A stretch of DNA of 64,000 nucleotides. It comes from Laetmonice hystrix (Eukaryota). The notes beneath the pieces are model-generated. The model worked only from the letters and a program-made list of their open reading frames with translations. It ran no database searches and had not been told where the DNA came from. The position numbers and the translations under genes were made by a program. How positions within the stretch are numbered: the stretch's first letter is position 1; each line of letters begins with the position of its first letter. Shown here piece by piece: positions 2 through 54,300 of the stretch. The stretch is taken from the NCBI GenBank assembly GCA_965235115.1, contig OZ249436.1, positions 34,970,001-35,034,000 of the forward strand, given 5' to 3'.

Positions 2-3000
2 TCTTCAATTGCATTAAAACATACTCAAAGGGAGACAGGGGGAGTCATTATTCCAAGTAACATCAATCCACATGTTTTCACAAGCTTCTGTTGGGACAAT
101 ATTGATCTCAACGAACAGACCTTAAGTGGAAGTAACACCACTCACTGCACGAACGGGATCCTTGTTCAACGCCGTGTTCACACATGCGAGCCCGCAACAG
201 GTCAACAAGAAGGAAGTCAGCTGCAGATGGAGACAACTGCTGAGGTCCCTGGTTTCATGCCATATATTCACAGAGCTAGAAAGGGCCCAGGAATACTGAA
301 TGTTGACTTCCAAATATGCTCAAGTCTGAAGGAAGCTTTCAGTAAACCAAAAGAGATAGATTTTGCCTGGTTCCTGCTAAGACTACCCGTGAAATCTGGC
401 AACCTCTTCACTGTCTCTTCGCCTCTTGATGATCAGCAGCAAATGATTCCAGGTGTGTTCTCTTCCTTCTAGTTCCTTGGAGGGCCCCCTACAGTTATTT
501 TCTCGTGAATATACTGTGCATTGTTACTCTCACCTATGGATGAAGGTTGCTTAATTATCAGTCTATCCAGTAACCCAGCATATTACTGATGGTTTCCTTA
601 ATTCCAATCCTACAATAAGAAATAATGGAATTATTAAGTACAACTGTAGATAATTGCCATGAATACACACATTATGCTTGTCCAATGGAGGGGCAGCTAT
701 GTAGAACAAAGAATAAGTTTCATGTCCCACGAATATCTTCGAACAGAACAGACTTTTAACTAAGGGGCTGGTTCCTCAGTCGTGAAAGGCCTAAGTACTA
801 CTATTACTTAGGCAAGAAATCATCCAAAAACGTTACTTAAGTTAACCGTTCCTCATTCGCGCTAAGATGTGCTGAGCCTATCTTAACCATTACTTGCCTA
901 AGTCAGGTGCGGAGGTTACCAAACAGTCACCGGGTGCAGAGCTGACCGGCACCATGAGCAAAGCGGCCCGCGTGACTCTTTCGACGACTGAGGAACCTAT
1001 TTTGGGGAATGAGCACTGCCCAGCTTACTTGTTACTCAGCCAAGTCGTACTTAGGCGCACGACTGAGGAACCGGCCCCTGGTCTATAATCGGATGTTAAT
1101 AAAATCTCTTATTTCAGGCTGGAGTCCATTTAATGCTCGGGTACAGCATAACCAAAGTGTGCCAACATCCAATGTGGGATACTGCCAGACTATTGATTCA
1201 AGTCCAACAGAACTAAGCACAGTACATACAATCTTGCAACGGTCACTGGTCATGGGCAATCAGCTCGGACAGGAAGACGTCGTGGTGGTCATGGATCAGG
1301 CCATTTATTGCAAAGCCAAGCAAATCATTTGGTCAGCGCCTGGTGATTACAGAAGGGTTGTTCTCCGTATGGGAGCTTTCCACATTGCATGCAACTTTCT
1401 TGGAATTCTAGGGCAGCGTTTTGGTGAAGCAGGCTTGCGGGATCTGCTAATCGAAAATGGCGTTGTGGCAGCTGGATCCATTGGATGCGTACTGAATGGA
1501 CACCAATACAATAGAGCAGTTAGGGCCAACAAGGCAGTCTATGAAGCACTGCTGAGGATCAAGTGGTCAGACTTCGGATCCTGGTTGGCTGCGAATCCTG
1601 ACATTCCATTTGACCAAGAAGCACTTTGTACCCTTCTGGGGACATTTCAAGATGGCTTCTCATCTGAGGAGATTAAAGATCTGCTTGATTCCCCAAATTT
1701 CAAGCATGCGCTAGCAGCTTACAAGAGGTACACAGCTACTGATCGCGGACCAATGGCTGCCTTCTGGGAATCCTACCTCACTATGTTTCAGCTCTTCCTT
1801 AACTTCATCAGATCTACAAGAGAAGGAAACTGGGCCCTCCACAAAGCATGCCTCCGGAACATGCTTCCTTGGATGTTTGCATATGACCACACTAACTATG
1901 CGAGGTACCTGACTGTCTACCTCTGGGATATGTTGCAACTTCGGGAAGCTCATCCCATAGCTGATGAATATATGAATCAGGGCGAATTTGCTGTGCAGCG
2001 TTGTGAAGCTCATGCTTTTAGTCAAGTTCCTGTCGACCAAACCATTGAACAAACAGTGAACAGGGACAGTAAGACACCTGGTGGCATCATAGGCTTCAGC
2101 CTGAATAAATCAGCTATGCATAGGTGGATTCTGACAGCACATGACAGAGCTGCCATCACACAGAGTTGTAGACGTATGGCAGGCTTGAACACTGAAGAAT
2201 ATGGCCGACACAAAGAAGACACGAAGCCTAGAATAAAACAGGACGAAGAATGTGTTGCACGTCTCGTTAAGTATCTGATAGATCAGACCAATCCATTCCA
2301 GCCTTCCACAGATCTCATCAGTGTCACCTCTGGCATCGTAGCACCAGAAGACATCACTCGTGACCTACTCCAAGCTGAGGCAAAAGGGGAAGAAGCACTG
2401 GATAAATTCGTGAAGTCACGTCTCAATAAAAATGACGTTGATTTCTTTGATCCCCTCAAGAAGCTAAATCTGAAAAGATTCAGTAAAACAGCCAACTCTA
2501 AGTCGAAAAAACCAAAAGAGTCCATGCAGGCCGACCTTGACTTCTTTGCAAGATCCTTAGTCATAGCACAGAACAGACGGCTTGATCTCCGTGAGGTTTT
2601 CACGTATGAACTGAGACAGTTTCCACCTTCTTTGGCATCACCAGATGGGGGACTGTGCAAAACAGCCAAATCGAAGTTGGCCCAGCTTCTGGAGATGAAA
2701 ACAGTTTCTTCTCTCCAGACACCCAAAGGATCCGTCTTCATTATGGATGGAATGGCCTTCCTACACACTCTGAAACAAATGCCTGACACCTTCAGAGAAC
2801 TTGCAGACAGAATCTTGACGTTACTCTTCAGACAGGCGAACAACTTTGGTCAAGTTTCTCGAGTGGACTTCGTTTGTGACAGGTATGAGGATGTTTCAAT
2901 CAAAAACATGGAAAGGAGTCAGCGCTCAGCCTCTCTCAGTGGCGTCTTCCAAGTGAAGATATCAAATCCATCTCAGAAGTGTCCACAGCAATGGCAGAAA

Positions 3001-4035
3001 TTCCTTGCAGACGAACTAAACAAAAAGGAACTCATTAGGTTTCTTTACAAGGAATGGCAGACAAGTAAATATGTCAGTGTTCTGGAAGACAAGGAACTTT
3101 TCCTCACTGTTGATAAAACCTGTCACAGGCTAACATCCCTTGGTGACAACATTCAGGACGAAATTATGTCTACCTTGCATACTGACCAAGAAGAAGCTGA
3201 TGGGCGATTGTTTCTTCATGCCCAAAATGCAGCACAAAATGGACATCAAACAATTATCATCAGAAGCCCTGACACCGATGTTGTAGTCTTAGCTCTCCAT
3301 CACCAACAGCAAATTAAGTCAAACTTGTTTCTTGTCACTGGAGCACAACAGAAACAACGTGTTGTTGATATCAAGAGTCTTGCTGATGCATGGGGTCAGG
3401 GCGTGTGCAAGGCCCTGATAGGACTCCATGCATTCACTGGGACGGACGCCACAAGTGCCTTTTGTGGTAAAGGTAAAAAAGTTGCCTTTGATTTGCTCCA
3501 ACGGGATGAGGTGGCAGTGAGGGCATTTCAACAACTGGGAGAGTCACTTCAAGTTAGCACTGAACTCCTGAACTTGTGTGAGGAGTTCACTGCTCATCTG
3601 TACGGAATTGACCACCTTGACAGTATCAGTGAGGCCCGGTTTCTTCTATTCTGCACAAAAGGTCATCACCAATCACAGCAGCTTCCCCCAACACAAGACG
3701 CACTCGTACAACACACGAAGCGGGCTAACTATCAAGCAGCTATCTGGAAGCGTGCAATGCAATCTAGGGCCCATATACCAAGTCCAGATGGCCATGGATG
3801 GACTGTCCGAGATCATGCTCTGTCCATTTATTGGACACAGAAAGTCACTGCACCAAAGGAACTCATGGAGTACATCTCATGTAAATGCAAAACTCCCTGC
3901 ACTTCCAGGCACTGCTCTTGTAAAAGATCCAACCTGACATGTACGTATGCATGCCACTGCCCAAGAGACTGCACGAACAAAACTATGAATCCAACTCTGA
4001 AAAATCTCGAGGATGACAGTGAGAGCGAGGAATAA
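2..4035 (+). CDS. Academ transposase-XPG nuclease fusion, 5'-partial; exons <2..452 and 1118..4035
   Basis: The frame from position 2 reads ...FCWDNIDLNEQTLSGSNTTHCTNGILVQ...QQMIP. Donor CCAG|GT at 452/453 and acceptor TTTCAG| at 1117/1118 join in phase to give IPGWSPFN. Transposase motifs: WDNID, MDQAIY, MGAFH, HTNYARY, DQTIEQ. XPG/FEN PIN-like motifs: DGMA, VCDRY, QEEADGR, SPDTDV, TGTD. C-terminal CKCKTPCTSRHCSCKRSNLTCTYACHC. No stops or frameshifts. Confidence 0.88.
763..1079. mobile_element. MITE (Harbinger-like ends) in the transposase intron
   Basis: 22-bp TIRs AGGGGCTGGTTCCTCAGTCGTG (763-784) and CACGACTGAGGAACCGGCCCCT (1058-1079), 1 mismatch. No clear TSD. Confidence 0.75.
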
Positions 4036-4264
4036 AATAATCAAGTCTAGTCAACGACTCATCTGCTGCCAGGCTTCCCAGTTTTCCTGCTGTCAGTTGC
4101 CATTGCAGTGGCCTGGTCGGTAGCAGCTGGTGATGCTGATCTGGCATGCCATAGCTACTTCTAGTTGCCCACTGTTCCTGAAACCGATTCTGGCCCCTGC
4201 CTCATTGAAAGACACGGCCACGTGGTCTGCCTCTAATTAATGAAGTGCCGGATGAGCCCTGATG

Positions 4265-5704
4265 ATTACCATGGCAACGAGATAAAGTAACATTTTGTAG
4301 GGTGTGGGTGGGTGTTTGGAAAGACTATTGCTAGGCAACGGGATGGAATTGTCAAATATCAATATACTGTAATTCTTTGCACCTACTATTTTTATAGGTT
4401 TGATATAGATTAGTTATCATTATAATACCGGTCACTAAGAACGTATTCAAAAATAATTGGTTGCTAGGCAACAGAATCCAAACATGATACATCCTGACAA
4501 ATGAAGCATTCGACATTTCCTCAAAATGTCTTATCCTCAAAGTACCCTAACTTAAGAAGCTGTATGTTCTTAGAAACTGTGCTAGTAGACCAGGCTAGAA
4601 TGTTGCATATAGCATGATCTGCCAAAAAGGAGTGGTTCTAACAAGGTTGTTCTATTGTTACCATGGAAACCATACAGACTAATTTTCAGATACTTTACGA
4701 AAGAGACGTGTACATATATACACTTACAATGCTTTAAAAATGGAAGAAATAGCTAATACCTAATGCTAGGAAAATCGATGGCCCAATAGTCACCAATTTT
4801 GGAGTTTATTGGTTACCATGGCAACAATATAATGTTAAATTTTGTGTATGTGTGTGTTTTTGTAATGTACCCTCTGAGCTTTTCCATACAAGCTATCATT
4901 ATGTCCTGATCCCCCTTAACTGTCTTCACTATGTTGAAATAACTTGACACCCCAAAGTATGGTGTAAAATATAATATTAAGATTGTTTCATTGTTACCAT
5001 GGAAACCAAGCAGAATAATTTTTACCTCCTATGTGATTCAGGTTAAAGACAAGGGTACATATCAGAATAACCATAGAAGTTAAACAAATATATGATACTG
5101 TGGTTACTGGGGAGACTGAAGAAACTATTTTCCCCATGTTCTCCAGATTTATACAGTTTATTAGTTACCATGGCAACGAGATAAAGGAAAAATCCTGTTT
5201 TGTTAATTTTGTAAAAAACATTCTCTGAGCTCTTTCATATGAGATATCTCGTGCACAGATACCTAAATAAATGACTCTGGTGTGTTGAAATATCTTAAAT
5301 CTTCGGCCTCCCTACAATATCGAGTGGAACTGGAGTTTGGCACTGTTACTATGGAAACGATCGACCTCAATTTCCATTTCATATGTTATTCAAATTCCAG
5401 ACATATGCATCTGTCAAACTGCATGTGTAGACATGAAGCATTTATAACACTCCGGTTCCTGTGGCAACTTACAAAGTAACAATTCATCAAAAATCACCAA
5501 ATTGAGAGAGTTTACTCGTTACCATGGAAACCGGATAACCATGACAACAAAAAAATTGTATTTTCTGGAATGTACTCTGTAAGCTCTTTCATATGAGCTA
5601 TCACGCAATCTATTCTGTGGATTATTCGCTTCTAGGCAATACAAAATATCAGTTTTCCCTAAACTACCTAAAATACAGAGGTTGGTTTTTGTTACCATGG
5701 AAAC
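4265..5704. repeat. Subterminal degenerate ~350-bp repeat carrying GTTACCATGG(C/A)AAC palindromes
   Basis: Motif or close variants at 4265, 4327, 4460, 4657, 4812, 4993, 5164, 5345, 5518 and 5691. Surrounding blocks recur at ~4790, ~5140 and ~5495. Confidence 0.85.
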
Positions 5705-6994
5705 AGTGCAGTTGTGGGTAATTGCCGACCAGATAACTGTCGGAAATAAAAAATTGAGGATTTTTCCTGCAGTTTTGTACCAAGAAAGTGAGCTAACAAG
5801 GGGGGGTCCACGAAATTGAAAAACTAGGGCCTTTTTCAGCCCTCATGTGATAGACTATATGATCCGTGCGATAAGAGTGATCGAATCAAGGTAGCCTGTC
5901 AAACCGTTACACGCCCCCATTGAATCGTCACACCCGGTTTTGTGTGACGGTTTGAACTTTGACTTCTTTCATTTTACGGAATTGTGATGGTTCATTTTGA
6001 CGACTTGACTCTCATGTTAAGCGTTATGTTGAACACCCTTGTGTTGAATCGAGTCAAACAAGGCAAATAATACGGCAAATCCATACTCAAAGTGGTTCAA
6101 TATTATGAGCCAGGGCGACTCCCAGCCCGCGGATCGCCGGGCCGCCCTAGCTGTCCCCACCGGGAGCAACCGTGCGGCCCTGCAGAGCTGTCGCAAAGTG
6201 GCCGGGTCATTTTATTCGATTCATCTATGTTTGGTCAAAGTTGTTAACATAACAACAACTTTATAATGATATCTGGTCTATATGAGTTTACTAACACCAT
6301 TATTAGAGGCTCTAACCACTATATATATAAGGGACTCAATTTCGGCCGGCATCTCACTACCTGTGCCAGTCATGTGTCATTGCGCACTGGGGCGATACAT
6401 GGAATCCATGTATATCAATGCGTCGAGGGGTGTCCGAGCACAACTACAGCGAAGCGACCGGAAGTTGGGCCGAGGTTTTCCGAATGGTCCTAGGCCATGT
6501 AAGGCGTCACATGAGGTCCCATATAGAATCTGTCCCCGACTTCACAGTAACGTAATGGAGCTCACTAGGAACCTTGACGTTTGATAGCAAACTGTAAAGC
6601 TAGCTCCTGGCGAAAAAAATAATCAAAATAAAGAACACTTTTTGGACTGATGAATGGGTGATCCTGTAAGGTTTTCTTACTCTGAACCTTTTCTTGGTAT
6701 TTAAAAACGCCATGAAATTATGCAACTAAGCAAAGAATTCGTCAATACTGTAAAACAACCCGGTACTATGCTGCTATGCCCTTATTGCTAATAGTGAATA
6801 CTGATATGCGTCCTTATGTAAATACATTGGGAAGTAGGACGATAAACTCAACATAAACAAACAACAAAACCGAGCGCAGAAAAAATAAAACACTCAAAAA
6901 CATCTTTCCCTTGGTCTTTTTTTCAAGGGGGGGGGGGGTTCTTTTAACTCGTATAAAGTAGGTGGGTTGCGCCCCAGATGCCGAGCAGGGGCAG

Positions 6995-7076
6995 GTGTGT
7001 CAGGCTGAAGGGTTCTGCAGCGAGGCGTTCCCCGCAGGGCTGGGACCAAGCTGCTTCATGAGGCCTACCCACACAC
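6995..7076 (-). promoter_or_regulatory. Candidate SECIS element (type 2, apical CC in place of AA) in the MsrB1 3'UTR
   Basis: Minus strand: helix I GTGTGTGGGTAGGC/GCCTGACACAC; core ATGAA (7059-7055) opposite AGAA (7016-7013); helix II GCAGCTTGGT/GCCTCGCTGC; apical CCC, then a CCCTGCGGGG mini-hairpin. It lies downstream of an in-frame TGA gene on the same strand. Confidence 0.65.
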
Positions 7077-8466
7077 TGCACCCACCCACAGGCGAGGGGC
7101 GCCCACCTACTGTACTGCTGTGGGCCTGTTAACACAACCATCTCATCAACGTCTAACATTTTCATGCATAAAACCTTTACAAAATTCAGTTTGCAATGCC
7201 TGAGAAAAAATCAACTGTACTTGGAAAAAAACAACTCTGAAAACCATTTCTTGTCTGACTGGGCAACATATAGAATGTATATACTAATCTACTTGCAATA
7301 CTTATTATTTTTGAAGGGAAGCGCTTACCGTTATGTCAGTTGTTTTTTTTTTTTTTTTTTTTTTTTGGGGGGGGGGGGGGAGTTATTTTCTGGAAGGGCT
7401 GGATGCTATACTTACATAACACACAAGTAACCAGGCATTTTTTGATGACATTATAATGGCCCATGACCAGAACTGTGTTATTATGTTCTGGCTATCCTGA
7501 TTCTCCCAAACAAAAAGAATGTAGTACATTCGTTAATGTTCCTTGAGTGATTGTGAACTTGTTTCCAAGGTTCACGTTAGGCCTTTGATCCAGTTGCTAA
7601 GATTCTTCAACAATTTATCAAGTTATGAGGACAAGTTATTATATTAAGGCACGCCTTGAGATATACCTCGGTAGATGTAATGATCATGGTATATAGAATT
7701 TCAAACATTACATATGACAAAGTACTTGTCGACAACATGCAATATTCGACTTCAGAAAACGTGGTTATTGTGTAAATCATTGAATCAGGACTGCTATAGT
7801 TACCTATATCAATCTAATAGTAATACTGTAATGGCGTGGATTTAACAAAATGAATGTCTTCAACCTCCATCAGTCACTGAACAGGTGCCATTACTTGCCT
7901 TGAGGGCTCCTTTTCCCTAGGACCTCTCTAACAGCCTGCATTTTGCAAGACACAATGACTCAGCTGCATTATTTTTGAGGCTGACCAAACTATTGGACTA
8001 TACTCCTAATAGTAGTCAGAAACTACCATTCATATATTACCCGATTCCCTGACAAGCTGGCCTTCACAAAGAAAATAATATTGTTGGCACTGGTGCACAA
8101 TAAACCAACACACTTCAGGCTGAGAACTTTCTACTGTAGGCTAAGTATAACCAGGGATGTTGAAACAATATGGATGAAACCAAAGTACTGCATGTGAGCA
8201 CGAGTTCTCATATATCATGGTAGGTGTTATCTGAGTATTACATGTACATATAGTATGTATTCATGCCTCCGAGTGATGCAGTAGTATTGTCATTGTATCT
8301 ATACTGTTGTCTAAGTCACCAAGGAAAGCCAAAGTCTCATGCATGACGACAGACTGAACCTATGCTTGCCAGGTTCTGGATGAAATGGCTCTGTACAGGC
8401 GACACTGCACTCATACAGTCTTCAATCACAGCAGGATGAAAGAGCTGATATAATACACAACTCCCT

Positions 8467-11400
8467 CTATTGTTCAATCTTGCGATCTGAAAATAACAGA
8501 GAATTCTCTTAATGTGTGTTGGAAAAATTCCAATTAACATTCTCAAGAATGTATCGGATTTATTCGGGTTTTACAATTTAAGCATCCATTTATTTGGAGT
8601 ATGACATTACAACTTATTACCTTTGTGAGGCGGTCAGCTGCTGCTATATAGAATTAAAGCGACAACCATTTGAAGCACACTCTGAGAATCTACTTGGCCA
8701 TTGTTTATTGCATAGTATAAGAATTGTAAATATGGTGTGCATACGTGTACATACCTTTAGTCGAGACAAACTTGAGGGAGTCACTGAATATTCAGAATCG
8801 TGACTGGCCTTCGCGAGGACCATCCCCCAGAAATTCATGTCCTAACCCGTTGTCACACTTCCCACAGCGCACCTGAAAGAGAACCCTGAAATCACTGTGT
8901 GTCTCGTTGGGATCATACACGGATGTATGGATGATTTGGTATTCTTGTGTTGAACATACAATTACAATATATATATATATATATGTATGCTAGTTTACGA
9001 TCTTGCAAACTAGCTGTGCCTGTAACACAAGTGTTGACTCATGCACTTATTCCTCCTGCATGGGGATCTCCCCAGGATATGGCAAAGTACTCATGACCAA
9101 ATCAGTTGATTTTCAATGAAAATGAACAGAATGCTACATCTATTTTTCCTTTCTTTATTTAAATGTGAACTCTAAGAGTAGGATGACACACACAGAGTAA
9201 AAGAAATCCTACCCATAGTGTACTTTAAGTGTTGTAATTAAGTGAACAACTTGAACAAGAATTGCAATGGGTATAGCCGTGCGAAGTGTATATTGTGTAA
9301 CAAATCATTTCTAATTTAATTTGTCCAATAAAAATTTCGGTTATTAAGAATACATAAGGCATTAATTTGATATTCTGGGCCTGTTGTACAACTTGTCCTT
9401 CACTTGTTCCATTAGATGGACAAGGAAGATCTTCTTCTGGAACTAGTCAAATAATGCTAAGGTTCTAAGCATCAAGGTCCTACATCTGAAAGTTATACTA
9501 GAGATTTCAGGAATTCATTTACCTTGTATACGTTTGCACCCTCTTGGTATTTGGCCAAGCTGTCTTCATGAAGTGGCTCAGTAAAGGCTGGCCATGGTGA
9601 TGAATGCTCATATTTTCCTCGACTTGAAAACAACTCATGCCCACAGTTTGAGCATAAGTATACACCTTTCAACCCAAAAAAAGAAGACAATAAGTATTTT
9701 TCTGTGTATAAGCCACACTTTCTTCCTTCTCAAACTAATCATAAATCGGAGGTGTAACTTACGGTATACATGGCCATGTGTCTGAAGACGGCCTATAAAA
9801 AAGTTAGTTTGACAGGATATTATGACTAGGTCCCTATAGGTTCCAATGGGAACTGGCCTGCTATATACCAATTTGAAAAGCTGTTGTTTTCCCTGAACAC
9901 AAATTATATATAATACAATGTATATGATGGATTCCAAAAATAAAGGTGTCATATTGTTTTCAATGCCCAGGGAAAGCAACAGCCAAATAACACTTATACT
10001 TTTTTTGATGGTTTTTAAATGGTTGTACAAAAAAGAATACAGTACTTAGCAACCTGCTTAGGCGACCACCTTTGGGACTGAGCTTTTTTTGGTCGCATAG
10101 CGAGGTGCTCGCCTCCACGAGCGACACCTTATATGGGGTAAAATCGTTTGTTCATTGAGAGCTAGGGCTGGGACGATTCATCGATACAATTGTGAATCGC
10201 GATATTTTCACGGAATGATACGATTTACGGTTCAAAAGCTGTGAATATGTATCGATATGTTAATATTCTTTATATGTTATCAAAAAGGCATTAAAACATG
10301 ATAAAAAGTGATAGAAATCTAACGAAAGCTGTGGCCCGTGGTGTCATACTGACATTCGGCTCAGTCACAATCAGGGTACCCAGTGGTTTGCAAATTGGTC
10401 CAATTTTTTTTTTCCTCAAATAGGAGTAAGTCATACAATGATTTTTGCAGAAATGTGTCAGGATTCAAATATAACAAACCCTGTGAAGCATTCGCACTCT
10501 GTTTTCGAGATACCAGGTTTCGAATAACATGTGTCCCATGGGGGTACGGACAGGACAGGGCTGCCGACAAACCAAATTCAGATCGTCAAATGACCAAGAG
10601 GGCTCTTGAACCAGATGTCAAACCGTGTTCAATCTGATCTCAGACCTACCAATACCATCGGGGCTTATGTTAAGAACAAATGGCAAGCCGAATTGGATGA
10701 ACAACCAAACAATAAATTGTATCAGATCAGTCCCGTCGTGAACCAAAGGTATCATCACGGCCTGACCCAATGTAGACATGAAATTGTTTTTACTCGATGC
10801 AGGATTGGTCATTCTAGATTAATCCACGTGTTTTTATTGAAGGGGAGCCACCTCCAGAATGTTATGGCTGTCAGTGTCCTTTGACACTGAAGCATCTTTG
10901 ACTTGAGTGTGGTGATTTTACTCTGATCAGACAACGGTTTTATAATGAGACAAGTCTTAAGGACCTTTTTAGCAATGTCAGACCAGTATGTGATTTTAGA
11001 GTTTTTGCCAGAGGCTGGACTTCTCACTCTTTTATAGTTCAGGCTCGTCGATAGCCCTGTTGGGCTGACAGGATTGAGTTTGTTTCAATTCCCGTTGGGG
11101 CCCGGGATAAAATGGGTTCTTTTCACTTTATGGTCTTTTAACCCTGTTTTCGCCATGAAGATGACCCCGGGTGCCGACACGGCGGAAAACCACCACTACT
11201 CACTCACTCACTCACTCACTGCAATATATATGCAAACAGAAACTGATTATGTTCACACATCCTTCACTTTAAATAATGTCCTGTCCGTCCCCCCTTCATT
11301 ATTTTCGGGTTACAGTGCTGCCTATTAAATTAAAGCAGAAATCAGATAGCTTTTAAATTTCTGATTGTTATACATATAATGTAGCAAGTATTGCAAATTA

Positions 11401-12827
11401 ATGCAGTAATCACAATATTAGCACCAGATTTACTGAACTAAAATACATTTTTGAAGCATATAAGTTTAGGTGGTGCATAACCCGTCAGTAAATTTCCCTT
11501 GTATTAAAACTTTGAGCGAAATATTGCATGAACTAAATGTATTATTGCCTTTACAGTTTATCCAGTAGTAAATAATCAACATATTGTCATATTCACTTGA
11601 TAAAACGTCATCAAATTAAAGCCTATAGCAAGGGGGTACGGACAGGACGACGGGGACGGACAGGACAAAATGCGAGTTGTGTCTTGTTTTTCAGGACGCA
11701 ACAGTGTGAAACCTCTTATAAATATTGTATTTAAGGACGTTCAAAGAAGGGCTACACATGCACAATATGGCACAAGTAGCTGCTTTTAGAGTAGCGAGAT
11801 GCCCCATGGGGTACGGACAGGACACAAATTTCTGGAAATAACAGCATGCAAAAGGATTCATACCTATTTTCATATATGATAACACCCAAACTTTTTTCTC
11901 CATCCCAGTTCCAAATAAACATTATTAAGTTTAAACCAGTGGCATTAGTATGCATTTATGTTGGAAATTACAGATATCTGGTAAGGTTTTGGTCATTGTA
12001 ATAAAAATATCGCTATTTTGTAACGAACAACACATTATTGAAAACATTCTGGTACTTTCCTCACAGAGGTCAGATTTCAACCAGAATACCTGCATGTAAA
12101 GAAAAAATGTTAACAAATTTATTATGCATATCTACATTAGTGTAATTGTAACATTAAACTGACATTTACGTTATGCAAAACTACGTAATTCATAGGTGCA
12201 AACCCGTAACAACTAAAACCTGCCATTCTTCCACATGTAAAACCACTTTTAGAAACATGAACTTCAACATCGACCCAAAGAAGGTGCATGGATGTATGTG
12301 TGTTAACAAGACACTTCGCATAATAAACATAAACTGTGGCTATTTATTGGTATAGGTGTGCAAAGGTTGCTGTAACATTACATAGTCCTAAAATGACACC
12401 TGATTGTGACTGAGCCGATTGATATGGCATAGGCCTACATGTGCATTACTGATCAGTATTACAGTAATCAGTTTGATTTGAATCAGTTTGAATCGTAAAC
12501 AGCGTGTATCGTCCCAGTCCGAGAACAAAGATAACATGGAGCTAACAAGGCTAAAGCTGGCCACACAGATGAGTGTGTAAAGAAAGCTGTTTCAATGATC
12601 GTGCTACCGTGCGACACCATTTCGTACAAGTTTGCGTAGTGAGTGTTGATGATGAAACCACGGATCACAGTTTTCGAGACATGACATGACACCGAGTGCC
12701 AAGGTGGCTTGAGCGATAATACCCACATTGGTGACTAAACCTACAAGCACACGATACGCAGTTTATACATACCATTTTTGAAATGTTCTTTGTACTTTTC
12801 TCCACCAAACCAGCTGCAGAACGACAT
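8467..12827 (-). CDS. MSRB1: Methionine-R-sulfoxide reductase B1 (selenoprotein R/X), 111 aa; exons 12827-12773, 9665-9523, 8872-8755, 8486-8467
   Basis: Spliced protein [46 protein letters not shown]...[35 protein letters not shown]...DRKIEQ. Two CxxC zinc pairs and Cys4 are present. The in-frame TGA at 8794-8792 falls in the SRFUIFS catalytic motif. Confidence 0.96.
10357..12417. mobile_element. Non-autonomous DNA transposon, superfamily unassigned
   Basis: Perfect 19-bp TIRs CGGCTCAGTCACAATCAGG / CCTGATTGTGACTGAGCCG, flanked by ATT on both sides. The internal motif GGGGTACGGACAGGAC recurs near 10541, 11634 and 11808, with an inverted copy near 11278. Confidence 0.8.
10578..11220 (+). mobile_element. 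5'-truncated, decayed I-clade (Nimb/Ingi-like) LINE
   Basis: Frameshifted ORF2 C-terminus: [17 protein letters not shown]...[13 protein letters not shown]...[13 protein letters not shown]...EC (CCHC knuckle). Ends in a (CACT)n tail at ~11201-11220. The 5' boundary is approximate. Confidence 0.8.
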
Positions 12828-13173: not shown

Positions 13174-13926
13174 GGGTGTCATAGTGGCCAGACTGGCGCC
13201 CCTTTCAAGAAGACAAGATTCTAGGTCCTTACTTTATGGGTAGTATTCATTGGATCAGTTCAGTATCTATTGCTCATTTTGATTAACGACCAAAGGTAGT
13301 CATTTAGAACTTAAGTAGAAATTTATAGTCAGTACTAGGCCTACTGACTGGCACACGCAGTACAGCACGTCACTCGTCAGTACTGGCAGTGTTCACTGTT
13401 TGTTAAATAACTGTACTGTAGACAGTGTAGTGTTGAGTGACGATGTTCTTTTTATTATCTAACTAACTTCTGATCATATTTATATATTTTAGGCCTAACG
13501 TCAGGCCTAATAATATGTTATATATATATATATATAATAATAATATGATAGAAATTGTGATGTTTCTCAAAGCATAATTTAGGCCTAGCCTGCCAATAAT
13601 TTTTTGTCGCTTCAAAAAAGGGGGGCTTGTACCACCCCCCCGCCAATAATGCCATTTATTATTGCTTTCTGCCACATTCATAACCAAATTGGACATTCTT
13701 CCTTTTGTTTTGTTTACCCTGGGGTTCCATTTAATTTAAGCCCATTGGCTTCATTTGTTTGGCTGTACATGGGACGATGCTGTGTCTACCTTTTGTTTGG
13801 ACCCGCCCCTGATTCCTATCAAGTGTAAACTGTAAAGCATTTACCAGCATGGCTTGGATTTAGAAGATAACCAGTAACTAGGGATGTTTTTTGCATTTTG
13901 CAGGGTAACTACTGGAAGGGACAGTG

Positions 13927-16504
13927 ATGGGTAAAACAAAAATGTCTGAGCAGAAAGATGCAGGAGTAGAGCCTCTTCCAGTTTCAAAGAGGAAAGCATC
14001 TGATTCTGACACACATGTTGTTGGAAATAAACCTAAGCGACAAAAGAAAGCAGTACCAACAGATTATGAAGTAGAGAGTAGGCCAAAAGGCCGCACCCAT
14101 ACTTTGAGAAGCAAAAGGAAACCAATTAATAGTCGAGCCGGAAAAGCTTCAGGAAGGAAACAGAAGGTTGTCAAAAAAGAGGAGATCGAAGTGGCGTCTA
14201 CTAGGGAAAAGAAGGAACAAGTTGGTTTATCAGTAAAGAAGGAGATTTTAGTAGAGGAGCAAACAGTGGAAAGTACTCCTGCTTCCTCCAGGGGGTACTC
14301 GGCCAGACGGAGGAAGTTAGTGGGATGCCATACATCTATTGCAGGTACCTGCTAAATGGTTTATGATCTCAGATTCGGTTGGGCTATTGGGCCCAGCAGA
14401 TGGTGTTAGCATAACCCTGAAAAAACAAACTCTGTAACCAATAGCCCTAGTTAGTAACAATTTTCAGTTGAAAATTTGCAAGCATCCTGAACAGAAACAA
14501 GCAGTCGAGTCTGTCAGTTGATAAATGTCCGTTTTCCAAAGTAAGCTGTAAATAAATGTGAGTAAAGTACAGCTTGAAATTATGTCTTTGTGCTTCTGTA
14601 TTGTAGGAGGCCTACAGAATGCTGTGTATGAGGCAGTTGACCTTGGGGCACGGGCGTTTGGTATGTTTCTTAAATCCCAGCGCCAGTGGAAGAGTAAACC
14701 ACTTGCAGATGACGTTGCAGAGAAATTCAAAATAGCTTGCAAGGTTGGCACACTTCCTTTAATCTTCACGTGTACTAGTGAAATTCAGAAAACGAGGGAA
14801 AAAGAAAATCAAATTTGGTGTGAATAAGATAATTTACAGAAATCCTGATTTTGGACAGTGATGTGGTAGTACAGAGCGTCCTATTAGAATTTTCTGTTGA
14901 TTGGAAACAAAGCAGTGTTCTAAGTTCATCAGAATTACACCCATTTTGTACCCAACACATCTAAAAAGATGAAAGCTATACAAGGTATATCATATGTTAA
15001 CATTGCCATGTCTGTTTTAACCAAATTGTACAGATCTATCAAGGCCTAACCTATTCAGCACAATTAAATTTATATTGTTTATTCTATCTGGGAATGGCTA
15101 TACAGGAGCATGGATTTGCGCCCCACCACGTGGTCCCTCATGGGTCCTATCTCATGAATTGTGGCTCGCCAAAAGCTGAGTCATTGGAAAAGAGTCGTGC
15201 AATGTTAGTTGATGAGCTGCAACGTTGTGAAAAGCTTGGCTTGGCACTCTTCAATTTTCATCCTGGTAGGTGTCATCCAACCAATGTGTGGTTTGACCCG
15301 TTCTTTATGTGTTCTCAATTTATAACAGATCAAGAATGGCTTTTATCAATCGTGATGATCAGACTATTGTTAGATGCAATGTAAGAAGATTAAGTTTGCC
15401 AAATAGTAAAATCGAATTACAAATGTCTAATCATTCTTTCAACAAGGTCAGACTCTTTTTGTAAATAAAGGAATGTAACTTTGTTTGCAGGTTCAACGTG
15501 TGGTGAAATCACAGTAGATGAGTGTGTCAATAGGATAGCTGAGAGCATTAACCAGGCACTTCAACAATCTAAATATGTGACTGCAGGTAACTAATATAAC
15601 TTAGAATAAACCCCAGAATTGACTTAAGTGACCTTCATGTAAGTTAATAGAGGCCAATCTTACGGTGAGCGACATGTAAATGTTATATAATATAGATCGG
15701 TCATGTCCATCAACAGTAAAATGTAAATAATGCATACAGACTTATCGCCACTTTTCTTTGATTTATGTTTTGAATTACATTATTTCCTTTTTCTCTATGA
15801 ACTTCTTGCAGTTGTTGAGAACATGAGTTGTCAGGGAAACACTATAGGAGGCAAATTTGAAGAACTGGGGCAGATCATTAAAAAGGTGAAGAACAAATCA
15901 CGTATCGGAGTTTGCCTTGACACTTGTCATGCATTTGCTGCCGGGTATGACCTCAAGTCCGAGGCTGGCTACCATAAAATGATGGACAGCTTTGAGAGAG
16001 AAATTGGACTGAAGTATCTGAAGGCTATCCATGTCAACGACTCAAAAGGTAACAATAGAAGCCAGACTACTCCTGACTCTGCTGTTGACTATAATGTCGA
16101 TGTTTCTAAAGTATTAGCCTAGATAAGCCAAGTAAAAGTGCCAAAAAGATTTAAGGGGGACTGACATTTTCACACTGTATAGTACATGTAATTAGATGAA
16201 CGGATATTTTACACACTATCCTAAAGTATATCTGTTCGAGAAATGAGACATTGCCCATTAGAAAAAGGATGCTTTATGGAATCTTGGATCATCTGATATT
16301 CGAATACCGGTATTCTTAATTTCAGGTGAGGCAGGGTGCCACCTTGATCGTCATGAGAACATTGGACGTGGAAAGATTGGAACTGAAGCTTTCAGCCGAT
16401 TTATGAATGATCCCCGTTTTGACGACATTCCCTTTGTCCTAGAAACACCTGGAGGGGACTATTCACGGGAGATCAAGAAGTTATACTCGCTGTGCAAGAC
16501 GTAG
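13927..16504 (+). CDS. apn1: Endonuclease IV-family AP endonuclease (APN1/Nfo-like), ~408 aa; exons 13927-14344, 14607-14743, 15106-15265, 15491-15586, 15812-16048, 16326-16504
   Basis: Motifs VGCHTSIAGG, PHGSYLMN, FNFHPG, VENM, CLDTCHAFAAGYD, IHVNDSK, DRHENIG and LETP supply all nine trinuclear-metal ligands. There is a basic N-terminal extension of ~125 aa. An acceptor at 13903 implies an upstream exon, so the start codon is tentative. Confidence 0.93.
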
Positions 16505-20018: not shown

Positions 20019-20167
20019 TGTGTTATCGCAACGTTTCTCGTATTTTAACAACTCCTCACTCAGTCGCTGTTCCACTGTCACACGCCTCGCGGCCTTGACC
20101 TTTTCAGCTCTGCAGAAAATTTTACAGTAGCGCCGTCTGTCGGCGAGTTGGTGCATCAAGAGTCAAG
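20019..20167. promoter_or_regulatory. Compact bidirectional promoter/5'UTR region between LAMTOR2 and ECD
   Basis: Only 149 bp separate the two divergent ATGs. Contains the CTCF-like CCGACAGACGGCGCT on the minus strand at 20129-20143. Confidence 0.7.
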
Positions 20168-36275
<16,108 letters not shown>

Positions 36276-48300: not shown

Positions 48301-51300
48301 CCAGCCGATAACCACCCTCCCGACGACGGTCCTCTCCCTTCCCGGCTGGTCGGTCCCACTACGCCCCCTCCCGATGACCGTCAGAATCCACAACCGGTGC
48401 AGCATACATGCGGCCGCTCGGCGCCTCCCCTATACCCGGCACAGGGAGGGGGGCGCACTGTGGGGGTGGGGTAGGGGGGTCAGAAGGGTGCCCGTGCCAA
48501 GGGAGGGGTCACAGGAGGAGTTCCCCCCCCCCCCCCGCTTCCCTCTGAGACCCCCAATTCACATTCCCGCTATTAAGACCAACCCGCACTGAGACCGCAA
48601 ACCGCCCAGTCCCAAAGGTGGTCTCCTAAGCGGGACTCTACTGTATGTTTGAAACTAGACATTTATCATTCTGTAGCTTCTATTTTCAAATAGTTTTCAG
48701 TGGAAGGCATTCCAAGTTTTGGTCCTGTTGAGAATCTCTTGTGTTCATACATGTGCAAACTGTTTTGCAGAATGGATTTCTCTGAAGCATTTAACTTGAT
48801 GCGAAAACATCGCATTAATCTGAATTTGATCTATGACCACAACCCAGACACCTTTCTCAATAATGTAGACGTACTGGTACATCAGTTGGCTTCTGTCAAC
48901 AATCTCAGCCTGTTCATCACAGATCTACAGTGAGTAAAGCATTTGTTAATGGTGAAAAGTATAGCATCTTTATAACACAAAGGCAAAGAAAATTGGCCCC
49001 CTTGGAAAAAAAACACAAATACAGACCAGGTCATTGTCTTTTAGTAGAAGTGTTTGCTGATCAAAACACACAAAAACACCTTGCTTATCCTTATTTATTT
49101 ACAATATGTTGACAACATCAAAGGTTACATAGATCATAGATATTTCAGGACGAATTCCATGTCGTCTTAGTAAGCCTATATATAAAAAGTGCTCAGAATT
49201 CTGGTATTGAACCTGGATTTATTTCAGAGAGGAGGATGTAACCATTACCATGTACATGGAAGCTTATAATAGAACAAAGAACCAGCAACTAAAGTCGTCA
49301 AAATCCTCAGTCAGTAAAGTGGATATTGTATGTGATGCCCTGCGAGAAGTACTTGTCAAAACTGATCAACATAAGTGAGTACCGGGTGTCCAGTAAAGAT
49401 TTTATAATACAGGGCTCATTTCATGTATACCTCTACCTCAGTGGCCTACTGGTAACTCGGTGCCTTCTGAGCTTATTCTTTTACTCATTTAAAAAGTTAA
49501 AGACATAGAGACAGCTCTTTGCAAATTACATTTAGAAAAGCTTAGGTCAAAGGATCTTGCTGTCTTGCATATGATACACTTGATATTTTTCTAAAAGTAC
49601 AGTCTTATTACCTCATACTTTATGTTGCCTTGAGATGTGGTTTGGGGTGCATTAACTGAACTGTGACATTCATCTTTCTTCACATTGACCCTAATATTTA
49701 TGCCTGTTTATTTCCACCTAGATACCTGCATTGTATTTTGACCACATATGTTAAGAAAACCAACCCGGACCTAGAAGTTGCCCTCTGCACCATCAAAACA
49801 TTAAAAGGTGACGGAAAATTTTATAAGCTTGTCTTTGGGCTAATGCTATGTGATTTCTTTCAGATAATAGAATCAGATTTTTTTTCAGAAAGAGAAGATG
49901 TGAAGGAGGGATTAGTGAAGGCAGAGGAGGCCCTCAAATATCTTATCTTTCTCGTGGATGTAAATGAGTTGTTTGACCATGCCCTCGGCACGTATGACTT
50001 TGACCTAGTGCTCATGGTAGCGGAAAAGTCCCAAAAGGTAAGAATGATGACGGGTTTTAATTCTCTTTGTGTATGGGGGGATACAAAAGAATAATGGCCG
50101 TATCTGTGCCATACTCTTTGCATACTCCCCTGGCAGAGACGTCTGTTCATTATTTTCGGACAAGTTTATGATAAAGTTACAAGGAAGATTTTTAGATTTC
50201 CAATAACTTTAAGATTTTACCGTAATATAGTATTATATAGTTACACAACATGGCCTTGTTGCTTTAAACCCGTGATAGAATGTGAATGTGGAGAGACAAT
50301 TGTTTCGTGGTAAATGTATGTGATATCAAATCTGTTTCAGGATCCGAAGGAGTATCTGCCATTCCTGAACAACCTGCGTAAAATGGAGACAAACTATCAA
50401 CGTTATAGCATTGATCTTTATTTGAAGCGTTACAGCAGAGCTTTAGAGCACATCACCAAGTGTGGTAAGGGTCTTTTACCAGTCACAGTTATAATATACG
50501 GTTCCCTTATTGGCAAAGGAGAGAATAGCAAATACATACGTGTATTGTACTATTCATTGTCCAGTGGAAATATTGGAACTTCCATTATTCTGTCAAAAAG
50601 ATTGAAATGAATAAGATATGGTACATCTTAACAATCTAACTGTGCTCAGTGAAATGTGCCTTGTCTGACCATAACCTTTTCGTTTTGAGGCCAGAATGTT
50701 TTAGGCTGTAATTTCATGCTTTCCCCTCACCTGCCACCATTGCCACTGCTCAGTGAGTGTTTACTGAAGTTTTCTTTGTTTGCCCTGTGCCTGTCTAGAG
50801 GACCACTTCACTGACTGCCTGGCCCTGGTCAAACAACACAACCTGTATGCTGCGGCACTTAGACTTTTTCAAGTCACCAGTCAGCAATACAAGGTAAATG
50901 GCAGCTTAGGACCTGCCAAAGTCTGCAGTCCATATTTGAGCATATTATGAAATATACTTTGCACATATTTCTTTATAGGATTACCATCCCTATTTAATGA
51001 CATGTTGTCTTTATATACAGGTACTTTGTCTGTGGGGTATATGAAGTAAGGACTTAGTTTTTACCAGGGTGAATGCATGCCTTTTTTGGTTGTGTTTGCC
51101 ACTCCATAGACATCCCGAAACCTCCTTTGGTATTGAAATGCTTTGTCGCAGAACCTGGTATGTACATCTCTTGTAAAAATGATAGAAAAAATGCTTTGCA
51201 AAATTGTAATATCTCTCTGTCTATTTGTCCCCTCCTTTGGTTGACAGGACATTGCGGTAGCATACGGCGACTTCCTGAAGGAGAAAAGTTTACCAGATGA

Positions 51301-54300
51301 GGCAGCTATCATGTTCTGTAGAGCCGAGGAGTGGGCGTCGGCTCTGAGTGCCTTCCAACAGTGCCTTAACTGGCGGCAGGCAATCGTCACGGCACATAAA
51401 CTCAACTACAGCCGGGAGGCCATCGCTCAGATGTCGGCAGACCTAGCAAGTATGTGTCTCAACTCAATGACAGCACAGGGAAAAATACAGGCACACATAC
51501 AACACACATTAAAACACACACTGGCTGCAGACCTGGGGCCCCGTCTTACTCAGGGGTGCGTTTCTCATCTATCGTTATCCTGTCGTGCGTTAAAATCCCC
51601 ATTGAAAATGCATTAGAGTTAACGATACGACAAACAAACGACATGATGAGAAACATCCCCCAGGCTGGTTAATAATGAGATCGTTAAGTTAACGTAGCAG
51701 TGAATGGTGGCTGTAACCAGCGGCCTTCCATTCACTCAACTCAATGAAGAGTTTGCAAGGTAAATAAGTACTAACAGACAATGAACAGTTACCGGCATTC
51801 TGAATCTAAAAACTGCAGATATACACAATGATTGCTACATCGCCTGTGTTTAATCTTTAGGAAGATTGTGTGATGCATGGCGCTATGCAGAGGCTGCCTG
51901 TTTATTGGAGCAATATGCTGAAGTAAGTGCTTCTCCTACAAACAATGCTACCTCGTAATGTCAGTACATCTGTCGAAAATGTATTTAATCAAATTTAGAT
52001 TTACTATGGATTTCAAACCAGTGTTTCTATTTAAAATATATTTTATTGTAGGATGTTGAACAGGCCATTGTGACCCTCATCGATGGCGAAGTTTGGGAAG
52101 AGGCCCTGAGACTGGTACGGCTGCTTAAAGGTGCTATTCGTCTCGCACAGAATGGCATTTCTCCTATCATACATTGTGCACATAGTACTAGAAAAAATTC
52201 CTACCGATACCATTGGCCTGATAAACCTTCTATTAGTTTGTGTGCAGCATTTGAAACCTATCTCGGTGCGCACCGAGATAGAGCCATTTCCTATGGTGAG
52301 GCGTGTCAGGGTCTCCACAGGCCTTCTGAGAGAGCCCCATTTGTGCCGTTATCCATGAAAAATTTTGATTTCCTTTGTTGTGAATCTATTTCCATGATGG
52401 TGGGATCACATAAACGTCAACAAAATTTAAAATAAAAAAATTGAATTTTTGTTCACGAATAGCACCTTTAAGAACACTTGTTACTACCATCAACTTATCT
52501 CATCATCAGAGATTCACCAGAACGGAACGAAAGTATTTTCCTGTAGACTTTTTCTGGGGGTGGACAGAGTGTTTGAGACCTTAGTTTATTTATGTTGCAT
52601 GGGGTAGTGATGGTTTTAGGTTTTAATGTGGTCTTATAAAGCTTCATTACACATTTTTTTGCATTCGCAGGGAGGGGGACCCCCTTTCAAAAATTAAACC
52701 TACCCCCTTTCAAAAATTAAACCTGGTACCATTTCTTCCAGATGTATAAATACAACAGAACTGACTTTATCGAGACACATTTCAAAGATGCCTTGGTGAA
52801 GAGTTTTCAAACACACGAAGATGGCATAGAAAGTATTCACAGAGACTTTGAAAGACATCGTGACCGCTTGGCTGTCGTCAGGCAGCAAAAGGAAGAAGCC
52901 AGACTGGAACTGCTCGGTTAGTACTGGTAATTTATGATTTTCTCATGGAACCAAGGCTGTCTGTAAACCTAAACGTAATTATAGTGTTATCGTAAAGAGT
53001 TTTTATTGTAATTTTTGTGCCTTTATTTTCTCCGTGTGTGGAGTAGAAGGAGGAGGAGAGTACAATACGGCTGATGCCGATCTGTTCTCCGACACAAGTA
53101 GTGCTACAGGCGAGTCTGTGGTATCGTCCCGCTACTCTGGTACACACTCAATGAGATCTTCATCCTCGAGGTAAGTCAAAAACATGACAGCTTGAACACT
53201 TACAACGTGCCTCGATCTCCCCCTCCCCCCAGTTTTTTTTGCAGGAGAGGGGCCGGGAGAAGGGTTATATGAACTTATTCCTGTCGTAAATCATTTCAAA
53301 GATCAGGAGATGCTAACATGCTATAAATAGTTGGACAAAGGAATTCCTATCAATTGTATTTTCTGTTGCCATCCTAGGCGATCAGGAAAAGCGAGAAGAA
53401 AGATGGAAAGGAAGCAGTGGAGTTTAAAAGAAGGAAGCAGACATGAAGATCTTGCACTTATTGAGGCCCTGTCCAAGTTGTGCAAACAGGCCGATAGTAA
53501 AAAAGGTTGGTTCACAACATTCACAACGTCACAAAACACAACACAGCACAACCCATGAGCAAACAGATCTCTTTGTTCAGTATCCGCTGTGGTCAAACTT
53601 TTAGTTGGTCGCTGTCTGTAGTACAGTGCTCAGTTTGTTGGTTGTGTATTTGACAGAAGAGACCCACGCCCTACTACAGATGTTGGTGTTGTTCCATGAG
53701 GAGAGCAAGGCGTCCGTCCTCCAGGCCAAGTTTGACAGACTTCTGTCAGTGATAGGTACTTCCATCGCCGAGATCTGGGACCCGCTCACTGAGGCCGTCG
53801 GTACGGCGATTACTCCGGTAGGTAGCGCTCTCACCCAGTCTCCCCAACTTTTTCTGATACAGGTGGTGCCCTCTGGTGTTATTGTCAGAAGTTCCTGACC
53901 TGCCAGTCTGTCGCCCAAGTTGGGCGCCAAGTAGGGGAAAGTTTAATACCAATTATTTTTGATTATTAACAGGCATTGGGACCTGAGGCCACAACAAACA
54001 GCATCATAGCTGCCATGCGAGCAGGTGAACCGGTCACGACAGAGGTTAAACTAGGTGAGTGGTCCTTTATGTAATATGTTTTATTCCAATTATCTGGTGT
54101 TAAATAGACAGTAGCACCATGTGTGAGCGCCTCTGTGTTTGAGGCAATTTATTTGTTGAAATTATTTAACCAAATACTAGATGGAGCATACAGCGCCAAT
54201 TTCAGTATTTTTAACAGAATGTCGATTCGTTATTTACAGATCCCTCTGTACGAGTTCCACCAGCCATGGATAAGGACCGGGCTTGGCGGCTTCACTCCCT

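What the first reader, a model, noticed from the sequence alone, without database searches (positions are those of the whole stretch)
6958..7110. Candidate non-canonical CC-type SECIS on an extended stem, far down the MsrB1 3'UTR
Seen: by eye I found no AUGA-AA-GA SECIS downstream of the MsrB1 stop. This minus-strand hairpin has SECIS geometry (AUGAA/AGAA core, 10-position helix II with two mismatches, mini helix III) but has CCC where the apical AA belongs. It sits on a further long stem (GTAGGTGGGCGCCCC/GGGGCGCAACCCACCTAC) spanning ~150 nt. Known: apical CC SECIS elements are rare and described for mammalian SelM and SelO, while mammalian MsrB1 uses the AA type. Inference: an independent AA-to-CC switch in an invertebrate MsrB1 that default searches could miss.
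Basis: partly seen in the sequence, partly recalled or inferred. Interest (0 to 1): 0.8.

Follow-up and report, generated by a model that had tools for sequence, protein, structure and literature searches.

The report
CCA-type SECIS in invertebrate MsrB1
A hairpin 1.4 kb behind the stop codon of an invertebrate MsrB1 gene is likely the signal that lets the ribosome read its internal UGA as selenocysteine, and it has CCA where AAA is usual, a rare but known kind of signal that related animals' MsrB1 genes appear to share.

Summary
Minus strand 7059-7013 reads AUGAA / 10-position helix II with two mismatches / CCCAG bulge / CCC-GGG helix III / AGAA, on a 39-pair basal stem (z -3.3). It lies behind a four-exon MsrB1 with UGA at the catalytic position; the splice joints are seen in a cDNA-like run. 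It is single-copy. No AA-type SECIS pattern hits the UTR. Only the loosest pattern finds this hairpin, which is by far the most stable hit. The AA-type SECIS of another animal's MsrB1 (L001) matches here best of 128,004 positions (31/47), with three compensated helix II pairs and CCAAG against CCCAG. So this is likely the real SECIS. It is less unique than proposed: 4 of 31 distinct predicted MsrB1 elements from metagenome loci also read CCA, others ACA, CAC or CTA, and an invertebrate CC SECIS is already published (Ciona savignyi DsbA). Against: covariance models score it weakly (10 bits), the CC can pair in an equally stable fold, and the 3' core AGAA is atypical. Its presence in the main mRNA and its readthrough activity are untested.

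The parts
12773..12827 (-). MsrB1 coding exon 1 ([21 protein letters not shown])
   Evidence: joint 9663/12771 in run X4
9523..9665 (-). MsrB1 coding exon 2
   Evidence: Pfam SelR E 1.5e-8; MsrB1 homologs; joints in X4
8755..8872 (-). MsrB1 coding exon 3
   Evidence: Pfam SelR E 1.7e-6 with TGA read as U; joints in X4
8792..8794 (-). In-frame TGA at codon 93 ([12 protein letters not shown]), predicted selenocysteine
   Evidence: TGA at this position in all 50 related loci where it could be read, of 56
8467..8486 (-). MsrB1 last coding exon with TAG stop (111-residue protein)
   Evidence: joint 8486/8755 in X4
6706..8466 (-). Inferred 3' UTR; its end is not established, and there is no AATAAA or ATTAAA between the stop and 6216
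   Evidence: X4 contigs cover 8068-8486, 7935-8097, 7433-7964 and 6706-7217
7343..7380 (-). C14-A24 homopolymer tract upstream of the hairpin; a possible internal oligo-dT priming site or neighbour of an upstream poly(A) site
   Evidence: sequence; skipped as a repeat by the read tool
6958..7110 (-). GC-rich 153-nt hairpin: extended basal stem (helix I and below) carrying the SECIS
   Evidence: same register as the long stem of L001
7055..7059 (-). 5' SECIS core AUGAA
7045..7054 (-). Helix II, 5' strand; heterozygous U/C at 7045 keeps the pair (U.G or C-G)
7040..7044 (-). Apical bulge CCCAG (CCA at positions 12-14 after the core, where AAA is usual)
7030..7039 (-). Helix III CCC/GGG with UGCG loop; heterozygous U/C at 7036 in the loop
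7017..7026 (-). Helix II, 3' strand
7013..7016 (-). 3' SECIS core AGAA (GA kept; first base A instead of the usual G/U)
   Evidence: consensus UGAN/KGAW from PMC3753652
7006..7009 (-). UUCA that can pair with the 5' core UGAA in a competing predicted fold
   Evidence: P about 0.7, 1.2 kcal/mol better in ViennaRNA, whose model has no kink-turn term (established knowledge)

Best explanation
The hairpin is likely the working type 2 SECIS of this Sec-MsrB1 gene, with a CCA bulge in place of the usual AAA. Shown: the gene, its splicing, the in-frame UGA, the element's geometry, its single copy and its homology to an AA-type MsrB1 SECIS. Inferred from established eukaryotic Sec insertion: the UGAA/AGAA core would form tandem sheared G.A pairs (kink-turn) and bind SBP2 or SBP2L. 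These would bring eEFSec with Sec-tRNA, so that the UGA about 1,470 nt upstream in the spliced RNA is read as Sec93. Helix II would hold the A/C-rich bulge 11-12 nt above the core, and the 39-pair GC-rich stem would pre-fold the element in an AU-rich UTR. The CCA most simply arose by one A-to-C change from a CAA form like that of L001, in a gene family whose apical motif drifts in invertebrates. Recoding may be weak, as for some human CC elements; this is untested.
For: (1) The gene needs a SECIS: spliced joints match the four exons, and TGA stands at the same codon in 50 of 50 readable relatives among 56 loci. (2) No rival element: strict, default and loose patterns give 0 hits, and no NUGA-AA-GA candidate folds below -5.6 kcal/mol, against -16.7 here. 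(3) Homology: the 47-nt element of L001 passes all four patterns and sits on a contig with exons 2-3 contiguous. Its best ungapped match among 128,004 positions of the window is exactly 7059, 31/47, next best 25, mean 11.4, sd 2.9. Helix II differs by three two-sided changes that keep pairing (positions 3, 5, 8), and both long stems start and end in register. (4) A gap-free alignment of the window with six relatives has 82.9% of helix II cells paired and 7 of 10 pairs with two-sided changes; 0 of 500 shuffles reach the covariation score. (5) CCA is tolerated elsewhere: 4 of 31 distinct elements, predicted unpaired at 0.83-1.0 in L013, L043, L045 and L047. An AA-only model finds three of these four. 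(6) Both heterozygous sites in the hairpin fit the fold. (7) DNA depth over the hairpin equals that over the exons, and a spliced run has a contig across the hairpin (6706-7217).
Against: The AA-only covariance model R1 does not list the hairpin among 19 hits at E <= 10 in the window; it also missed 8 of 14 held-out elements, L001 among them. Model R2 ranks it first in 5400-8500, but at 10.1 bits (E 0.24), and 11th of 21 in the whole window. Seven of the eight related elements scanned do not pick 7059 as their best match. The 3' core AGAA occurs in 0 of 31 related elements and departs from KGAW. Helix II has two adjacent mismatches; the published SECISearch3 grading rule applied by hand gives C, or B if Covels >= 15 (not computed). 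The CCC is predicted unpaired only about 35% of the time (25% in the other allele), since the two folds tie at -16.7. The 5' core can pair with a downstream UUCA. Two heterozygous sites in 153 nt against 27 in 1,824 nt show no depletion. There is no functional test.
Confidence: 0.8

Rival explanations
1. It is the real SECIS, but the working apical determinant would be the single unpaired A (7041), not CC. The C run would be incidental and often paired, so 'CC-type' would be a misnomer.
For: All 31 distinct related elements and the window keep an A at position 13 or 14. A7041 is unpaired at P 1.0 in both folds, the Cs only at 0.25-0.36. ACA, CAC and CTA forms exist that have neither AA nor CC at positions 12-14.
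Against: In the four CCA relatives the CC is predicted unpaired at 0.85-0.98. It is kept between L013 and L043/L045 while helix II, helix III and the flanks differ. The SECISaln consensus speaks of a run of M (A or C) (PMC2647825).
Confidence: 0.3
2. The SECIS is real but would sit only on a minor long-UTR isoform. Most transcripts would end near the C14-A24 tract, lack the SECIS and stop at the UGA, making poly(A) choice a switch for active enzyme. The UGA lies 40 nt before the last junction, so such RNAs would be expected to escape junction-dependent decay.
For: Precedent: SECIS-less 3' UTR variants of human SelS and GPx3 (PMC3316567 passage) and a SelP poly(A) variant lacking SECIS 2 (PMC5133445, abstract start in listing).
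Against: There is no AATAAA or ATTAAA upstream of the tract. An A24 tract is a well-known internal priming site, and a -80 kcal/mol hairpin can hinder reverse transcription (established knowledge). A mostly inactive message is unlikely for a conserved enzyme (inference).
Confidence: 0.15
3. The hairpin is a decaying or chance SECIS-like structure. The gene would use another element outside the scanned stretch, or insert Sec poorly.
For: Weak covariance-model scores, the atypical AGAA, adjacent mismatches and the competing pairing of the core. 7 of 300 shuffled UTRs reach this stability.
Against: The rank-1 match to the L001 element with compensated pairs, the long stem in register, no other candidate in 8500-5400 and the intact UGA reading frame.
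Confidence: 0.08

Closest known systems
Mammalian CC-type SECIS of SelM and SelO (and human TrxR3)
   Same: Type 2 geometry with CC at the apical position, 11-12 nt above the GA core; fits the CC branch of SECISearch loose+. Sources: PMC3316567 and PMC2761289 passages.
   Different: A different gene family (MsrB1) and an invertebrate; one A is kept (CCA); 3' core AGAA; activity not measured.
Ciona savignyi DsbA SECIS with unpaired CC (PMC2874816, passage)
   Same: An invertebrate type 2 SECIS with CC whose relatives have AA; predicted computationally.
   Different: A different gene. Here the CCA form recurs in five MsrB1 loci, beside ACA, CAC and CTA forms.
Human MsrB1 (SelX/SelR) SECIS
   Same: The same gene family and a type 2 element (PMC2761289 passages).
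   Different: The human element has the AAA motif, a fully paired helix II and strong recoding; here CCA and two adjacent mismatches.
Predicted MsrB1 SECIS of locus L001 (unnamed animal, metagenome contig)
   Same: 31 of 47 nt identical, the same length, the same helix III and GGGAAC 3' side, and a long GC-rich basal stem in register.
   Different: CCAAG instead of CCCAG, GGAA instead of AGAA, one mismatch instead of two; passes the strict pattern.

Membership tests
Eukaryotic SECIS (type 2) | Upstream gene with an in-frame UGA at a conserved Sec position | tested here: met
   Codon 93 is TGA; TGA in 50 of 50 readable relatives among 56 loci
Eukaryotic SECIS (type 2) | Invariant UGA/GA core with an unpaired purine before it | tested here: met
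   AUGAA 7059-7055 and AGAA 7016-7013
Eukaryotic SECIS (type 2) | Full core consensus UGAN/KGAW (usual, not invariant) | tested here: not met
   The K position is A; AGAA in 0 of 31 relatives, AGAT in L047. PMC2647825 calls only UGA/GA invariable
Eukaryotic SECIS (type 2) | Helix II spacing the core from the apical motif by 10-13 nt, at most two mismatches | tested here: met
   CC after 10 or 11 nt, 8 of 10 pairs; covariation with relatives
Eukaryotic SECIS (type 2) | Helix I below an internal loop, and helix III above the bulge | tested here: met
   39 pairs below the core; CCC/GGG helix in a fold that ties with the best one once the core is held open
Eukaryotic SECIS (type 2) | Lies in the 3' UTR of the mature mRNA | tested here: inconclusive
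   A contig of the spliced run covers it, but none links it to the coding exons, and that run also has intron contigs
Eukaryotic SECIS (type 2) | Significant covariance-model score | tested here: inconclusive
   Rfam gave no SECIS hit here nor in 17 related loci; own models 10.1 bits at best; SECISearch3 itself not available
Eukaryotic SECIS (type 2) | Binds SBP2/SBP2L and directs UGA readthrough | not testable with these tools
   Needs a reporter and a binding assay
Canonical AA-type SECIS | Unpaired AA(R) at positions 11-15 | tested here: not met
   CCCAG; strict, default and loose patterns give 0 hits
CC-type SECIS (SelM/SelO kind) | CC at the apical position | tested here: met
   Loose+ CC branch at spacing 10 and 11
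CC-type SECIS (SelM/SelO kind) | The CC is unpaired | tested here: inconclusive
   Two folds tie at -16.7; P(unpaired) 0.33-0.36
Multicopy repeat | Raised DNA depth or further copies | tested here: not met
   Depth 24-58 over the core in three DNA-like runs, like the last exon, against thousands on nearby repeats; 1 match in the window at 3 mismatches

The most novel reading that the evidence does not exclude
Invertebrate MsrB1 SECIS elements have repeatedly given up the AA motif (AAA to CAA to CCA, ACA, CAC, CTA) while staying functional. The true apical requirement would then be one exposed A in a short A/C bulge, not an AA or CC pair. CC-like elements would be widespread outside mammals and partly invisible to pattern searches, and this orthologous series would directly test what the apical motif does.
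Probability: 0.4. Interest if true: 0.6.

Novelty: new member of a known kind. Interest (0 to 1): 0.4.

Why it matters
The role of the SECIS apical nucleotides is still described as unknown (PMC3316567 passage). A natural series within one gene family, including a near-homologous pair differing by CAA against CCA (L001 and this window), gives ready reporter constructs to test it. It also matters for annotation. Of 28 related elements tested, 5 were found only by loose+ (the four CCA and one AGA) and 3 by none of the four patterns, so Sec-MsrB1 genes can look SECIS-less. It does not change the known mechanism of Sec insertion.

Tried and rejected
No genome is held for this window, so other selenoprotein genes, SBP2/SBP2L and tRNA-Sec of this animal were not examined. 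The run search listed no holder on record as RNA; X4 is read as cDNA only from its three spliced joints. In X4 the contigs upstream of the C14-A24 tract have depth 137-235, the contig over the hairpin has 22.9, intron and flank contigs have 8-10, and nothing covers 7218-7432. Contigs cannot show an RNA's end or level, the tract is skipped as a repeat, and all four runs are one sample. So this is only the lead behind the second rival, not evidence. Rfam is uninformative: no SECIS family hit the window or 17 related loci. An AUGAA...AGAA candidate at 8264 was rejected: 51-nt middle, no AA at the right spacing, no pattern hit. The AA candidates at 7621 and 7575 were rejected as too short or too unstable. 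One search used a structure string off by one column and was redone. blastn of the L001 3' region against the window found nothing. Placing the organism failed: it groups weakly with a Paralvinella-like set in one tree (SH-aLRT 81) and elsewhere in another (82), outside the vertebrate group; 'invertebrate' is likely, the phylum is open. The atlas search gave no taxonomy. The supplement of PMC3473315, which shows invertebrate SelR SECIS elements, could not be read and may already show a CC-type MsrB1 element. Three look-ups of earlier scan findings returned nothing.

Full report
Observation. The hairpin is in the sequence as described. On the minus strand it reads AUGAA (7059-7055), a helix II of ten positions with adjacent U.C and U.U mismatches, a CCCAG bulge (7044-7040), helix III CCC/GGG closing UGCG, a 3' bulge AAC, and AGAA (7016-7013). 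The whole 153 nt fold at -80.4 kcal/mol (z -3.28, 0 of 200 shuffles as good). With the core held open, 39 pairs lie below it. It is a 67% GC island in a 38% GC UTR.

The gene. Four coding exons (12827-12773, 9665-9523, 8872-8755, 8486-8467) give a 111-residue MsrB1 with TGA at codon 93 (Pfam SelR). Run X4 shows the three GT-AG joints, so the gene is transcribed and spliced as modelled. Of 56 related loci from metagenome contigs, 50 could be read at this codon and all 50 have TGA. A SECIS is therefore expected. The core lies 1,408 nt after the stop, about 1,470 nt from the UGA in spliced RNA, within Seblastian's 3,000-nt limit (supplement S4 of PMC3753652).

Is there a canonical element instead? 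I re-implemented the four SECISearch1 patterns from supplement S1 of PMC3753652; this is my approximation of PatScan, not the program. On 8500-5400, strict, default and loose give no hit. Loose+ gives three, all through its CC branch, at -16.7 (7059), -3.0 and -2.7 kcal/mol. A freer scan for NUGA-N10..13-AA-N15..31-GA found nothing below -5.6. The pattern alone is weak: 272 of 300 locally shuffled UTRs have a loose+ hit, but only 7 have one as stable. In the 128 kb of both strands, two other loose+ hits are more stable.

Is it a repeat? No. Three DNA-like runs give the same depth over the core as over the last exon, while repeats at 5600-6660 and 10500-11200 reach thousands to hundreds of thousands. 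A 23-base piece has one match in the window at three mismatches. The individual is heterozygous at 7045, which turns U.G into C-G, and at 7036 in the loop; both fit the fold. Two sites in 153 nt is no depletion against 27 in 1,824 nt.

Relatives. I called one element per locus by hand from a geometry and energy scan (for L004 the third-ranked hairpin, which matches L005) and added five loci from a model search. This gave 37 of 56 loci and 31 distinct elements. In 19 loci none was called; several end soon after the UGA or lack exon 3. Fourteen AA-type elements covary strongly in helix II (81% paired, all ten pairs with two-sided changes). The triplet at positions 12-14 is AAA 11, GAA 4, CCA 4, CAA 3, AAC 2, TAA 2, and CAC, AAT, AGA, ACA and CTA once each; 8 of 37 loci have no AA at positions 11-15. 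Every element keeps an A at 13 or 14. All of these are predictions. L013 carries CCA on a contig contiguous with its coding exons. L013 and L043/L045 keep CCA while helices and flanks differ.

The strongest evidence is L001. Its element passes the strict pattern. Laid without gaps on all 128,004 positions of the window, it matches best at 7059 (31/47; next 25). Three helix II pairs change on both sides, the bulge differs by one base (CCAAG against CCCAG), and the basal stems share register with little sequence identity (L001's stem alone has z -1.24). The other seven elements scanned did not rank 7059 first (ranks 26 to 4,245). An alignment of the window with six same-length relatives has 82.9% of helix II cells paired. 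Long basal stems of 25 or more pairs were predicted in 17 of 22 relatives, so the extended stem is a family trait.

Results against. The AA-only model R1 did not list the hairpin, though it also missed 8 of 14 held-out elements, including L001. R2, built without the window and L001, ranks it first in the UTR at 10.1 bits (E 0.24) and 11th of 21 in the window. AGAA as 3' core is absent from the 31 relatives and departs from UGAN/KGAW. The type 2 fold ties with one in which CCC pairs with GGG, so the Cs are open about a third of the time and only A7041 always. The 5' UGAA can pair with UUCA at 7009-7006, 1.2 kcal/mol better in ViennaRNA, whose model has no kink-turn term. Inclusion in the mature mRNA is open: a contig of the spliced run covers the hairpin, but none links it to the exons.

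Mechanism. By established knowledge of eukaryotic Sec insertion (PMC8704476 and PMC3328465 passages), the tandem G.A core would form a kink-turn bound by SBP2 or SBP2L, which recruits eEFSec and Sec-tRNA to recode the UGA. The CCA bulge would stand in for AAA. This step is inferred, not shown. Among human elements SelO and TrxR3 (CC) were very weak recoders and SelX (AAA) a strong one (PMC2761289 passages), so lower efficiency is plausible.

Origin. The free protein tree places the window apart from L013/L043, but holding them together is not rejected (p-AU 0.32; 38 rows, L045 and L047 left out). L013/L043 nest with L036 (TAA) and L035 (CTA) at moderate support. More than one origin is likely but unproven. 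The phylum is unresolved.

Literature. PMC3316567 (passages) found CC only in mammalian SelM and SelO among vertebrates. PMC2761289 (passages) adds TrxR3. PMC2874816 (passages) reports CC in the Ciona savignyi DsbA SECIS. PMC2647825 (main text) gives a run of A or C as consensus. PMC3473315 (passages) says almost all invertebrate elements outside sponges are AUGA_AA; its supplement could not be read. PMC2375036, PMC10778597 and PMC2901347 (passages) added nothing on CC in MsrB1. Eight searches and these passages showed no CC-type MsrB1 SECIS; subscription papers are not covered.

Verdict. The hairpin is real and is likely the functional SECIS (0.8). It is a new member of the known CC kind, apparently not reported for MsrB1, and part of a wider drift of the apical motif in invertebrate MsrB1. 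Interest 0.4.

Noticed in passing
L015:4461, L031:1734, L035:3981: Best SECIS-shaped hairpins with CAC, ACA and CTA at the apical triplet; none of the four SECISearch1 patterns finds them. L031's protein is identical over the aligned part to Paralvinella palmiformis MsrB1.
   Followed up: partly
L014:735 and L014:1447: Two SECIS-like AA elements behind one MsrB1 UGA; both score with the AA-only model (42 bits for the training one, 29.8 for the other).
   Followed up: no
L026:3037 (also L027, L029, L030): Predicted MsrB1 SECIS with an unusually long apical part (47-nt middle), missed by model R1.
   Followed up: no
window 12827 (-) and 13909-16122 (+): MsrB1 lies head to head, about 1.1 kb apart, with an endonuclease IV (AP_endonuc_2) gene; ecdysoneless/SGT1 (20099-35882) and ELP1 (49660-52435) follow.
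   Followed up: partly
window 976-4035 (+): Intact 1,019-codon intronless ORF with no Pfam hit and a Cys-rich end; DNA depth at 3500-4200 is about eight times single copy. Likely a DNA transposon.
   Followed up: no
window 10520-11221 and 5600-6660: Very high-copy repeats: summed depth up to 540,000 in MsrB1 intron 1, and up to 65,000 beyond the hairpin, where the first AATAAA (6216) lies.
   Followed up: no
window 7343-7380 (-): C14-A24 tract preceded by AAAATAAC, resembling the remnant of a poly(A) insertion; it may distort oligo-dT libraries.
   Followed up: partly
window 9604-9588 region, exon 2 (-): Exon 2 holds CATGAAGACAGCTTGG, nearly the same as the hairpin's CATGAAGCAGCTTGG (one base inserted); seen by eye, position approximate, probably chance.
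   Followed up: no
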